Shown: positions 7,254 to 9,261 of the stretch, piece by piece | Position numbering within the stretch: position 1 is the stretch's first letter | How the letters are laid out: each line of letters opens with the position of its first letter | DNA from: Longimicrobiales bacterium | GTDB taxonomy: Bacteria > Gemmatimonadota > Gemmatimonadetes > Longimicrobiales > Gaopeijiaceae | Length of the DNA stretch: 64,000 nt | Assembly: GCA_965248195.1 (NCBI GenBank) | Contig: CBDFIQ010000002.1 | Location: 1,376,001-1,440,000, forward strand | Direction of reading: 5' to 3' | The notes under the pieces: model-generated | Seen by the model: only the letters and a program-made list of their open reading frames with translations | Database searches by the model: none | Told to the model about the DNA's origin: nothing | Program-made: the position numbers and the translations under genes

Positions 7254-7937
7254 ATGCATCCGTCCATACAGTACACGAATGACGCGACAGCGCTGGAGGT
7301 ACGGGATCTGGGCTTGATTCCGTACGCAGAGGCGCTTGCCCTTCAGGCGGACTTGGTCGTTCGCCGGCGAAAGGGCGACATACCGGACCAACTGTTGCTC
7401 CTTCAGCACCCACACATCATCACCCTCGGCACGGCATCCTCACGTTCTAACGTTCTCGCCGACGAATCGAAGCGCCGGCACCTCGGCATCGATCTCATCG
7501 ACGTGGGGAGGGGGGGCGACGTCACCTATCATGGACCTGGGCAACTCGTGGCGTACCCCATCCTCGATCTGAAGCCGGATCGGAAGGACGTTCACCGGTA
7601 CCTGCGGGACCTCGAGTCCGTGCTCGTACGCACTCTCGACGAGGTCGGCATCCGAGGGGAGCCCGTCCCTGACCTCACGGGCGTGTGGGTGGACGGTCGC
7701 AAGATCGCGGCGATCGGGGTGCGAGTATCGAGTGGTTGGATCACGTCGCACGGATTCGCGCTGAACGTGTCGACCGATCTTTCCTACTTCGAGACCATCG
7801 TCCCGTGTGGTATCCGGGAGGTGTCGATAACGTCTGTTTCCCAGGAGCTGGGGCGGCCGGTGGATGTCACCGATATCCTCGAGATCATCTCCGAGGCCTT
7901 CTCGGAAATTTTCGACCGCTCCATTTCCGGCAGCTGA
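7254..7937 (+). CDS. lipB: Lipoyl(octanoyl) transferase
   Basis: RGGDVTYHGPGQLVAYPI, KIAAIG, HGFALNV, IVPCG. Confidence 0.95.
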   Translation: MHPSIQYTNDATALEVRDLGLIPYAEALALQADLVVRRRKGDIPDQLLLLQHPHIITLGTASSRSNVLADESKRRHLGIDLIDVGRGGDVTYHGPGQLVAYPILDLKPDRKDVHRYLRDLESVLVRTLDEVGIRGEPVPDLTGVWVDGRKIAAIGVRVSSGWITSHGFALNVSTDLSYFETIVPCGIREVSITSVSQELGRPVDVTDILEIISEAFSEIFDRSISGS

Positions 7938-8231
7938 AGCGGAGCCTGCTGGCCCGTCATCGCTGAGACCCGTCATTAGCCCCTCGAACGATGTTGGCGG
8001 GCCAACAAATAGACACCCCGCCGCGGTGCGGTTGGCGTCTTCTGTCTCCCGTTCTTTTCCGAATTTCAGGGGCTAAGAGTCCGCATTTTTCCTCACACGT
8101 ACCCGTCGAAACGAGCTGTCTCTGAACCCACGCCATGATATAGAAAATACATTAGAATAAACCGGTAACATGGTATTTCATAACGACATACATCATAATG
8201 ATAGAAACGAATTCATTATGGGCCCACAAGC

Positions 8232-8260
8232 TTGACCTGGGTCCTCGGGGTCGCCATACT
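8232..8260 (+). promoter_or_regulatory. Sigma70-type promoter for the candidate ncRNA
   Basis: TTGACC-N17-CATACT, preceded by an AT-rich tract with the inverted repeat CATAATGA-N11-TCATTATG (8194-8220). Confidence 0.6.
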
Positions 8261-8265
8261 TGTCG

Positions 8266-8615
8266 TGCGTTTCCGACGTGGTTCGCTGATTCGATGGCGT
8301 TGGTCATCCCTTCATGCGATTCGCGAAACGTGATTCACCGGGCGGGACGTCGCAGCGGTGGAAGCTCGTCGAGGAATTGGAGCTCGGTGAGCCGATGGAG
8401 GAGTCGTTGGTCTCCGTCGAAACCTCCGGAGCTCGGAGGGCTCAGGATCGCTACCACGCGAGAATGGGTTAAAAGGGAAGCTGAGTTCGCTACCTGAAGG
8501 AAGGTGAGCCGCAAGGTGAGCCAAAGATCAGGTGGGCGTCCAAGCAAGACGAAGCTTCTACCAACGAAACTGAAGCCCTCGGGACGGCTTGCCGTACCGG
8601 GGGCTTCTTTTTTTT
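8266..8615 (+). ncRNA. Candidate large structured non-coding RNA (family unassigned; possibly an expanded 6S-like RNA)
   Basis: Bounded by a promoter and an intrinsic terminator, with no credible ORF. Closing stem CGTTGGT/ACCAACG, many nested helices, a GCAA tetraloop. Confidence 0.65.
8572..8615 (+). terminator. Rho-independent terminator
   Basis: Hairpin GAAGCCCTCGGGACGGC-TT-GCCGTACCGGGGGCTTC followed by T8 on the + strand. Confidence 0.88.
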
Positions 8616-8676
8616 GACCGGTTAATCGGCGAACTTCGCTCCCGCCGGTTCTGCGCCGACCTTCTGACGCCGGACA

Positions 8677-9261
8677 CTAACGTGGCGGTGCTAGTTCCAG
8701 ATAGTCGCTGTAGCGGCCTCGCCGGTTCCGCTGGTCGTCCAGCCAGGTGCCGAACCCGCTCTCGACCAGCCCGTTGGAGGAGGCGCCCTCCTGCGCGGCT
8801 GCGGTCGCGAGATGATCGGCGTATTCGTTCTGCGGATGCTCCGCGTGACCTCGCACCCAGGTCCATTCGATATGGTGCCTGCTCGCCACCCGATCCAACT
8901 CTTTCCAAAGCTCGAGGTTCTCGATTTTTCCGCCCTTCCGTTTCCAACCTCGAGCTTTCCACCCGCCGAGCCACTCCGTCATGCCCTTGACCAGGTACTG
9001 GCTGTCCGACACGAACCGAACTTCACACCCCCTCTTGCGGAGCAAGCCCAGTCCCACGATCGCGCTGCGCAGGGCCATACGGTTGTTGGTCGTGTCCGGT
9101 TCGGAGATCCAATAATCCCGACGTATCCACCGGTCCCCCGTCCAGTACTCCATCATTCCGGCCGCGCCCCCGGGGTTGGCCCGTCCCTGAAACTGGTTCC
9201 CCAGACAAGACTCGTCGGCGAAGATGGCCACCCCGAGAGATTCGATCATGGATTCAGTCAT
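8677..9261 (-). CDS. rnhA: Ribonuclease HI
   Basis: ADESCLGN..NPGG, TTNNRMAL, SDSQYLVKG, WKARGWK, WVRGHAEHPQNEYAD. Confidence 0.9.
   Translation of the reverse strand: MTESMIESLGVAIFADESCLGNQFQGRANPGGAAGMMEYWTGDRWIRRDYWISEPDTTNNRMALRSAIVGLGLLRKRGCEVRFVSDSQYLVKGMTEWLGGWKARGWKRKGGKIENLELWKELDRVASRHHIEWTWVRGHAEHPQNEYADHLATAAAQEGASSNGLVESGFGTWLDDQRNRRGRYSDYLELAPPR

What the first reader, a model, noticed from the sequence alone, without database searches (positions are those of the whole stretch)
8266..8615. Stand-alone ~350-nt highly structured non-coding RNA candidate between lipB and rnhA
Seen: a promoter (TTGACC-N17-CATACT, 8232-8260) and a strong + strand intrinsic terminator (8572-8615) bracket a region with no credible ORF. 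The next gene is convergent, so this is not a 5' leader. Nested pairings: CGTTGGT 8298/ACCAACG 8560; AGCGGT 8354/ATCGCT 8447; AGCTC 8363/GAGCT 8380; TGAGC 8388/GCTCA 8440; GATGGAG 8394/CTCCGTC 8412; CCTCCG 8423/CGGAGG 8434; GAAGCT 8477/AGCTTC 8553; ACCTGA 8492/TCAGGT 8528; GCC-GCAA-GGT tetraloop 8508. It lacks the hallmarks of tmRNA, RNase P RNA and SRP RNA. The order GGGA...AGC / GCT-ACCAC...GGGTTAAAAG loosely recalls 6S RNA motifs, but it is much longer and more branched than typical ~180-200-nt 6S RNAs. Inference: either an unusually expanded 6S-like RNA or an undescribed large ncRNA.
Basis: partly seen in the sequence, partly recalled or inferred. Interest (0 to 1): 0.8.

Follow-up and report, generated by a model that had tools for sequence, protein, structure and literature searches.

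The report
New self-pairing knotted bacterial RNA family
This is a real, stand-alone gene for an intricately folded 350-base RNA that fits no catalogued RNA family, and one of its loops carries the evolutionary signature of RNA copies sticking to each other, so it probably builds an RNA-only dimer or larger assembly whose job is still unknown.

Summary
The RNA gene at 8266-8615 is real. It has its own promoter and terminator and no Rfam match. Homologues occur in 73 of 121 genomes of the family, across Gemmatimonadota (up to five copies per genome) and in seven Gammaproteobacteria genomes. RNA libraries of seven studies hold it. It is not an expanded 6S: a separate 6S-like gene lies elsewhere in this genome, and four of five carrier Gammaproteobacteria have canonical 6S. 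New here: loop L7 (8429-8434) holds a self-complementary 4-mer that switches among ten palindromes (66/102, held-out 60/89; shuffles about 24%), the signature used for OLE's intermolecular kissing loop. Best reading: a dispensable, trans-acting RNA that dimerises or oligomerises as a scaffold. Oligomerisation is inferred, and partners are unknown. This scan found the family before on other genomes (three notes); those notes, as shown, mention neither the self-pairing loop nor carriers outside Gemmatimonadota.

The parts
8232..8260 (+). sigma-70-type promoter (-35 TTGACC, 17 nt, -10 CATACT); start site inferred near 8266-8267
   Evidence: start site not measured
8266..8615 (+). whole RNA gene, about 350 nt
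8267..8331 (+). 5' domain: P1 (8267-8276/8321-8331), P2 (8283-8289/8312-8319), P3 hairpin (8293-8308); shorter single hairpin in distant homologues
   Evidence: (P1 87%, P2 91%, P3 100% paired in 12 sequences)
8278..8282 (+). PK1 5' strand (bulge in the 5' domain), pairs with loop L9 8453-8457
   Evidence: 0 of 2000 permutations; 98% paired
8334..8362 (+). P4 hairpin with GACG tetraloop L4 (8346-8349)
   Evidence: GACG in 149 of 194
8364..8392 (+). P5 hairpin; loop strand 8377-8381 forms PK2 with 8539-8543
   Evidence: (P5 87%, PK2 94% paired)
8393..8419 (+). P6 hairpin; its 11-nt loop L6 (8401-8411) is the most conserved sequence and forms PK3 with 8560-8567
   Evidence: (P6 89%, PK3 98% paired)
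8423..8439 (+). P7 hairpin; loop L7 (GAGCUC 8429-8434) is self-complementary, the candidate intermolecular kissing loop
8441..8468 (+). P8/P9 hairpin; loop L9 (8452-8457) is the PK1 3' strand
8476..8559 (+). 3' domain: P10 (8476-8482/8553-8559), P11 (8490-8535, with a lineage-specific GCAA-hairpin insertion), PK2 3' strand 8539-8543
8560..8567 (+). PK3 3' strand
8572..8615 (+). terminal hairpin P12 and U-run (intrinsic terminator); in many homologues, but not this one, its loop also kisses loop L11

Best explanation
A stand-alone, trans-acting, non-essential non-coding RNA of a new family. Shown by comparison: it has its own promoter and terminator, and folds into a row of hairpins that three long-range pairings (PK1-PK3; a fourth, L11-L12, in many homologues) lock into a compact shape (about 0.95). 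Shown: it moves, duplicates and is lost independently of any neighbouring protein gene (about 0.9). Inferred: loop L7 pairs with L7 of a second copy of the RNA, so the molecule forms an RNA-only homodimer or larger symmetric assembly, and some of the pseudoknots may in fact be between copies (about 0.65). Inferred by analogy with OLE and raiA RNAs only: the assembly is a stable, abundant scaffold that binds and organises or sequesters protein partners (about 0.4).
For: Structure: 58 pairs, 87.4% paired, 55 with two-sided changes, covariation 0.457 against 0.214 shuffled and 0.08-0.12 slid; 91.8% paired in 92 further sequences fitted to the model. Long-range pairings beat 2000 of 2000 permutations in the first set (PK1, L11-L12) and in the held-out set (PK1-PK3). 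PK2 switches among UUGG/CCAA, UUCG/CGAA, UUGA/UCAA, CAGG/CCUG and UUUGG/CCAAA. Transcription: 14 RNA runs of 7 studies hold the stretch; in the 4 runs laid, 415-2726 contigs each pile on 8274-8637, and 4-22 of 30 bins have any cover. Trans action: neighbours of non-syntenic copies are unrelated genes in both orientations, with no transposase, reverse transcriptase or nuclease family among 120 flanking ORFs. Dispensable: lipB abuts rnhA directly in 3 single-contig genomes without the RNA. Self-pairing: a self-complementary 4-mer lies inside L7 in 66 of 102 (shuffle mean 24.8, maximum 40) and in 60 of 89 held-out sequences (mean 22.4, maximum 35; 47 of 60 off the hairpin axis). No other loop is enriched. 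At under 70% identity: 38 of 66 against 15.9, and 20 of 48 against 9.8 (p 0.0004) after removing AGCU loops. Ten palindromes occur; GGCC needs 9 changes on the tree, GAUC 8, AAUU 5. PMC12286853 (passages) uses the same GGCC/GAUC/AGCU switch as support for the OLE L9.3 intermolecular bridge.
Against: 64 of 190 homologues have no strict palindromic 4-mer in L7, among them a whole genus-level clade and both copies in cultured Gemmatirosa, so L7 pairing cannot be universal. A 4-6 bp kiss is weak (duplex energies -2.5 to -8.3 kcal/mol). The permutation tests ignore relatedness, and 33 of the 92 held-out loci were found with a pattern that demands parts of PK2 and PK3. The RNA data are contigs from relatives at 88-100% identity, from runs chosen because they hold this stretch: they give no strand, ends or level, so abundance is not shown. 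No partner was found: Ro60 is in 2 of 121 and CsrA in 23 of 121 genomes of the same sample, neither in G000. The scaffold role rests on analogy alone.
Confidence: 0.55

Rival explanations
1. A monomeric, pseudoknot-locked RNA (raiA-like) that works as a ribonucleoprotein or regulator; the L7 palindrome is an accessory or protein-binding feature.
For: A third of homologues lack the palindrome. The most conserved bases are in L6/PK3, not L7. raiA RNA is an abundant, compact, trans-acting RNA bound by KhpA/KhpB (PMC12968392 passages).
Against: A protein site would fix a sequence, not self-complementarity across ten sequences.
Confidence: 0.22
2. A ribozyme or ligand-binding RNA with a catalytic or binding core around L6/PK3.
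For: Several pseudoknots, near-invariant bases in L6 and PK3, and presence in two phyla meet the 'biochemically sophisticated' criteria of PMC5737381 (passage). The window copy starts with GUGCG, like group II introns (recalled).
Against: No ribozyme or group II intron family matches. The 5' end is not conserved. Few conserved bases are unpaired.
Confidence: 0.1
3. A selfish, non-autonomous mobile RNA gene that spreads as a promoter-RNA-terminator cassette and does little for the host.
For: Up to 5 dispersed or tandem copies per genome, patchy presence, filled and empty sites in Gammaproteobacteria relatives, two copies on a megaplasmid.
Against: One copy keeps the lipB-rnhA site across two families. 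No mobility gene among 120 flanking ORFs. No target-site duplication seen by eye at the filled site. None of 36 viral-contig pattern matches is real and no phage record matches.
Confidence: 0.08
4. An expanded 6S- or Ms1-like RNA that binds RNA polymerase.
For: RF00013 reaches its cut-off in 0 of 101 genomes of the order, so the slot looked empty. Own promoter and terminator.
Against: No RF00013 or RF02566 match. No promoter-mimic rod. A separate 6S-like rod exists in G000 and canonical 6S in 4 of 5 Gammaproteobacteria carriers.
Confidence: 0.03
5. A cis-acting element (riboswitch or leader) or a small protein gene.
For: A 99-aa ORF at 8198-8497 overlaps it in the window.
Against: The downstream gene is convergent here, downstream genes of other copies vary in identity and orientation, and no frame is conserved.
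Confidence: 0.02

Closest known systems
OLE RNA (RNA-only homodimer; PMC12286853, passages)
   Same: Large orphan bacterial RNA; a loop whose central 4-mer switches between palindromes GGCC, GAUC and AGCU, which in OLE is the intermolecular bridge B3.
   Different: No Rfam match; about 270-350 nt against about 580; different topology; no conserved neighbouring partner gene found; different phylum.
raiA motif RNA (PMC12968392, passages)
   Same: Similar size class, stand-alone, trans-acting, pseudoknotted compact core, subtypes that gain or lose peripheral stems, function unknown.
   Different: No closing stem between the 5' and 3' ends; three or four long-range pairings rather than two; the UUAGA(C/A)GUAA linker is in 0 of 105 homologues; no Rfam match.
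ROOL, GOLLD, ARRPOF, manA, EGFOA RNA-only assemblies (PMC12286853, PMC12990946, 10.64898/2026.07.01.735769, passages)
   Same: Several covarying loop-loop or pseudoknot pairings, which in those RNAs proved partly intermolecular.
   Different: No Rfam match; not found in viral contigs or phage records searched; sits mostly among chromosomal housekeeping genes; oligomer not shown here.
6S RNA (RF00013) and Ms1 RNA (RF02566)
   Same: Independently transcribed structured RNA with promoter and terminator.
   Different: No match to either model; no rod with central bubble; coexists with a separate 6S or 6S-like gene.
Retroviral dimer-linkage motifs (palindromic kissing loops, GACG tetraloops; PMC516450, passages)
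   Same: Same two motif types occur here: a palindromic loop (L7) and a GACG tetraloop (L4).
   Different: Analogy only; no homology. Support for L4 self-pairing is weak.

Membership tests
6S RNA | Match to RF00013 | tested here: not met
   (0 at E up to 10)
6S RNA | Long irregular rod with central bubble mimicking an open promoter (recalled) | tested here: not met
   covariation gives side-by-side hairpins tied by pseudoknots
6S RNA | Binds sigma-70 RNA polymerase holoenzyme and templates pRNA (recalled) | not testable with these tools
   needs co-purification
Ms1 RNA | Match to RF02566 | tested here: not met
raiA motif RNA | Closing P1 formed by the 5' and 3' ends | tested here: not met
   5' end pairs with 8321-8331; feature from PMC12968392
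raiA motif RNA | Conserved UUAGA(C/A)GUAA linker | tested here: not met
   0 of 105
raiA motif RNA | Compact pseudoknotted core, trans-acting | tested here: met
   a likeness of behaviour, not of fold
OLE / ROOL / GOLLD / ARRPOF | Match to their Rfam models | tested here: not met
OLE / ROOL / GOLLD / ARRPOF | Loop with palindrome-to-palindrome switching (sign of symmetric intermolecular kiss) | tested here: met
   in two thirds of homologues
OLE / ROOL / GOLLD / ARRPOF | Forms an RNA-only oligomer | not testable with these tools
   needs mass photometry or cryo-EM
tmRNA, RNase P RNA, SRP RNA | Model match and being the genome's copy | tested here: not met
   each found elsewhere in G000, SRP at 39.8 bits against cut-off 40
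Group II intron / ORF-less IIC ribozyme | Domain V model match and conserved GUGYG 5' end (recalled) | tested here: not met
   no intron family hit; 5' ends vary
Y RNA / CsrB-type sponge | Co-occurs with Ro60 or CsrA | tested here: not met
   Ro60 2 of 121, CsrA 23 of 121, RNA 73 of 121; neither protein found in G000
omegaRNA / retron / RT-linked RNA | Adjacent nuclease, transposase or reverse transcriptase gene | tested here: not met
   none among 120 flanking ORFs, one longest ORF per side; none in the window context

The most novel reading that the evidence does not exclude
A new class of chromosomal RNA that self-assembles into an RNA-only cage or filament through L7 and inter-copy pseudoknots, in which paralogues in one cell carry different palindromes (AGCU in one subtype, GGCC in the other; both in G118 and G128) and so form separate, non-mixing assemblies with different cargo.
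Probability: 0.25. Interest if true: 0.93.

Novelty: categorically new. Interest (0 to 1): 0.82.

Why it matters
Large, multiply pseudoknotted bacterial RNAs are rare, and those known are either core machines or open puzzles. This one is widespread in an abundant soil and marine phylum, has crossed into Gammaproteobacteria, and comes with a specific, cheap test: a loop whose self-complementarity has been kept through many sequence switches. If it oligomerises, it adds a new fold to the short list of natural RNA-only assemblies, and natural paralogues with different palindromes offer a direct test of assembly specificity. A cultured host with two copies (Gemmatirosa kalamazoonensis) makes the in vivo question approachable. 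'Categorically new' refers to the family and fold; the proposed way of working resembles OLE-type assemblies.

Tried and rejected
Rfam: best hits over the RNA were 14.7-18.2 bits, far below cut-offs; nothing at gathering level in the window; nothing on the RNA in 11 and 7 homologue loci. A kiss between L4 GAC and L6 GUC is 83-95% pairable but shows no two-sided change: not claimed. L4 as a second self-kissing loop: CG changes to UA in 11 sequences (5 changes on the tree), but only 12 of 32 non-GACG tetraloops keep a palindromic dinucleotide (about 8 expected): weak. Template-switch repair as the cause of L7 palindromes: disfavoured, as 47 of 60 are off-axis and other loops are not enriched. 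oriC next to the gene: the best DnaA match is on the other contig. Weak R1/R2 hits under about 30 bits are noise: 7 of the 8 weakest R1 loci (L068-L074) and the 2 weak R2 loci read were not homologues. 47 of 121 genome pattern matches and all 36 viral ones were chance. Absence of cover on the flanking genes in the RNA contigs is not taken as evidence of their silence. The ORF count was crude and is not used. Shared flanking protein among paralogues: only lineage-level synteny found. Literature searches that named nothing like it: 0 papers; listings, none on this RNA. 'Gemmat' is absent from the main texts of PMC11109978, PMC8632094, PMC5737381, PMC12990946 and the bioRxiv paper and from the one supplement file of PMC8632094 that was held. 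The supplements of PMC11109978 and PMC5737381 could not be read and could hold this motif.

Full report
Observation. The window between lipB (7254-7937) and convergent rnhA (8677-9261) holds a promoter at 8232-8260, 350 nt that fold better than all 100 shuffles (z -4.3), and a hairpin plus U-run at 8572-8615. Rfam 15 gives nothing credible here or on 18 homologue loci. tmRNA, RNase P RNA and a near-cut-off SRP RNA lie elsewhere in the genome. No reading frame is conserved.

Distribution. BLAST finds it in 20 of 61 relatives, nearly always between lipB and rnhA or carA. Model R1 (5' 199 nt) hits 65 of 151 genomes of the order, with up to 5 matches per genome in family f3, some in tandem (this tally includes unpublished G115, G056 and G171 and a few weak hits). 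Model R2 (core) hits 73 of 121 genomes of the family and, above 55 bits, 21 of 151 of the phylum: f1 9/16, f3 1/1, f5 9/31, f4 1/74, none in the other families sampled. Only 16-20 candidates per genome were scored in these large searches, so misses are possible. G000 has one copy. A pattern scan of GTDB genomes stopped at 121 stretches; 74 are real by a local profile: 68 labelled Gemmatimonadota, 5 Pseudomonadota (4 Steroidobacteraceae), 1 unlabelled. That the window is from Gemmatimonadota is inferred from these labels. Two copies lie on plasmid 2 of cultured Gemmatirosa kalamazoonensis. None was found in viral contigs or phage records.

Gain and loss. Five single-contig genomes have no match; in three of them lipB abuts rnhA directly, in two other genes lie there. 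Seven Gammaproteobacteria genomes carry it behind the same LysM gene. That gene is native to the group (30 of 31 relatives; tally includes unpublished G443 and G450), and the RNA is at that site in 3 of 28 loci searched. Two close relatives show the empty site, terminator directly followed by the next gene. Only 1 of 121 genomes of that order matched. These copies fall among Gemmatimonadaceae-type sequences in the tree; transfer from Gemmatimonadota is my inference, and no rooted clade test was run. Neighbours of dispersed copies are unrelated genes in both orientations, with no mobility or nuclease family among 120 ORFs (one longest ORF per side).

Structure. Covariation, not the minimum-energy fold, defines it: the nested part scores -135.5 against an MFE of -157.5 kcal/mol because four loops or strands are held free for long-range pairing. 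In 64 sequences, 58 pairs are 87.4% paired, 55 show two-sided change, and the covariation score is 0.457 against 0.214 shuffled and at most 0.12 slid. In 92 further sequences fitted to the model, 91.8%. The 5' domain and PK1 hold in 12 sequences (95.1%). Long-range pairings: PK1 (8278-8282 with 8453-8457), PK2 (8377-8381 with 8539-8543), PK3 (8404-8411 with 8560-8567), each better than all 2000 permutations in the held-out set. A fourth, loop L11 with the loop of the terminal hairpin, scores at least 5 in 40 of 88 short-loop homologues (0 of 2000 permutations) but not in G000. These tests ignore relatedness, and a third of the held-out set was found with a pattern covering parts of PK2 and PK3.

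Transcription. Fourteen RNA runs from seven studies (sponge, sediment, marine and other metatranscriptomes) hold 43-66% of the sampled words. I laid 4 of the 14: 415, 1817, 2726 and 2253 contigs, concentrated on 8274-8637. These are contigs of relatives from runs chosen for holding the stretch, so strand, ends and level are not shown. A conserved promoter fixes the + strand by inference.

Not 6S. RF00013 passes its cut-off in 0 of 101 genomes of the order, with three weak hits in family f2 (one is unpublished G037, not used further). The two published weak hits (26 bits, E 0.04) find one clear homologue in G000 at C1:1175531-1175686 (E 5e-15). It folds as a rod with a central bubble and a terminator (z -1.96) but is itself not hit by Rfam, so it is a probable 6S. 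Four of five Gammaproteobacteria carriers have canonical 6S at 78-82 bits. Ro60 and CsrA do not track the RNA.

The mechanistic lead. Loop L7 (GAGCUC, 8429-8434) contains a self-complementary 4-mer in 66 of 102 homologues (3 of 105 dropped for loop length; shuffle mean 24.8, maximum 40), while L4, L5, L6, L9 and L11 are at or near their shuffle means. After noticing this I fetched new homologues: 60 of 89 (1 of 90 dropped; mean 22.4, maximum 35), 47 of them off the hairpin axis. With one sequence per 70%-identity cluster it is 38 of 66 against 15.9, and 20 of 48 against 9.8 when AGCU loops are removed. Ten palindromes occur, several with multiple origins on the tree. Adjacent bases in a loop cannot pair with each other, so kept self-complementarity points to pairing between two molecules. 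PMC12286853 makes this argument for the OLE L9.3 bridge with the same 4-mers (passage). Against: 64 of 190 lack a strict palindrome, including both Gemmatirosa copies. Two subtypes coexist in some f3 genomes, one mostly AGCU with the L11-L12 kiss, the other mostly GGCC or GAUC without it.

Mechanism, step by step. Shown by comparison: independent gene, conserved pseudoknotted fold, no linked protein, dispensable. Supported, not shown: transcribed at high level. Inferred: L7-mediated dimer or oligomer (about 0.65). Analogy only: scaffold for protein partners (about 0.4). Rivals are a monomeric raiA-like ribonucleoprotein, a ribozyme, a selfish cassette and a polymerase-binding RNA.

Known and new. 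It fails membership of 6S, Ms1, raiA, OLE, ROOL, GOLLD, ARRPOF, tmRNA, RNase P, SRP and group II introns, but plausibly works like the orphan RNAs that self-assemble. Papers seen as passages: PMC12286853, PMC12968392, PMC5737381, PMC11109978, PMC8632094, PMC12990946, PMC516450 and 10.64898/2026.07.01.735769. Nine searches found no description, but most subscription papers are not held and two large supplements could not be read. The general features of 6S RNA, group II introns and IHF sites are recalled. Three earlier notes of this scan describe the same family on other genomes; I read them after the family, fold and RNA evidence were in hand, and they are not independent support.

Verdict. 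A real, new, multiply pseudoknotted RNA family with a testable self-assembly signature; interest 0.82.

Noticed in passing
G000:C1:1175523-1175700 (L349:1523-1700): Probable divergent 6S RNA of this lineage, missed by Rfam: rod with central bubble and terminator, homologous to two weak RF00013 hits in family f2.
   Followed up: partly
window 7992-8007: Inverted repeat TGTTG-N6-CAACA just after lipB, unique in G000; a similar repeat is at the same place in many homologues. Possible operator or lipB 3' hairpin.
   Followed up: partly
window 8120-8230: AT-rich tract (36% GC against 63%) upstream of the promoter; IHF-like matches (recalled consensus, up to 1 mismatch) upstream in 13 of 101 homologues against 1 of 101 downstream, confounded by base composition.
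   Followed up: partly
L061-L066, L117-L180 upstream of the -35 box: Gemmatimonadaceae-type copies share a GGGA-W-rich-CCC-like motif abutting the -35 box; possible regulator site.
   Followed up: no
G000 genome, both contigs: About 50 copies of an identical short repeat (longer than 28 bp, envelope about 140 bp), two of them at C2:1336299 and 1338389, surfaced as weak hits; probably a MITE or REP-like element.
   Followed up: no
G000:C1:1071378-1073597: Array of 17 tRNA genes in 2.2 kb.
   Followed up: no
L011 (G010:C191): The 5' half of the RNA and its promoter are missing, with the AT-rich tract joined directly to loop L6; a deletion or a misassembly.
   Followed up: no
L290-L293 (genus g44): Divergent subtype at another locus with a much longer 5' domain, apparently no PK1 and no L7 palindrome.
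   Followed up: partly
L350 (G051) downstream of lipB: In this RNA-less genome two short ORFs that look like a PIN-type toxin-antitoxin pair (my reading, not searched) occupy the lipB-rnhA gap.
   Followed up: no
L023 (G009:C235): A second, divergent lipB-RNA-rnhA locus on a 2.6 kb contig of G009 groups with other genera in the tree, probably bin contamination.
   Followed up: no
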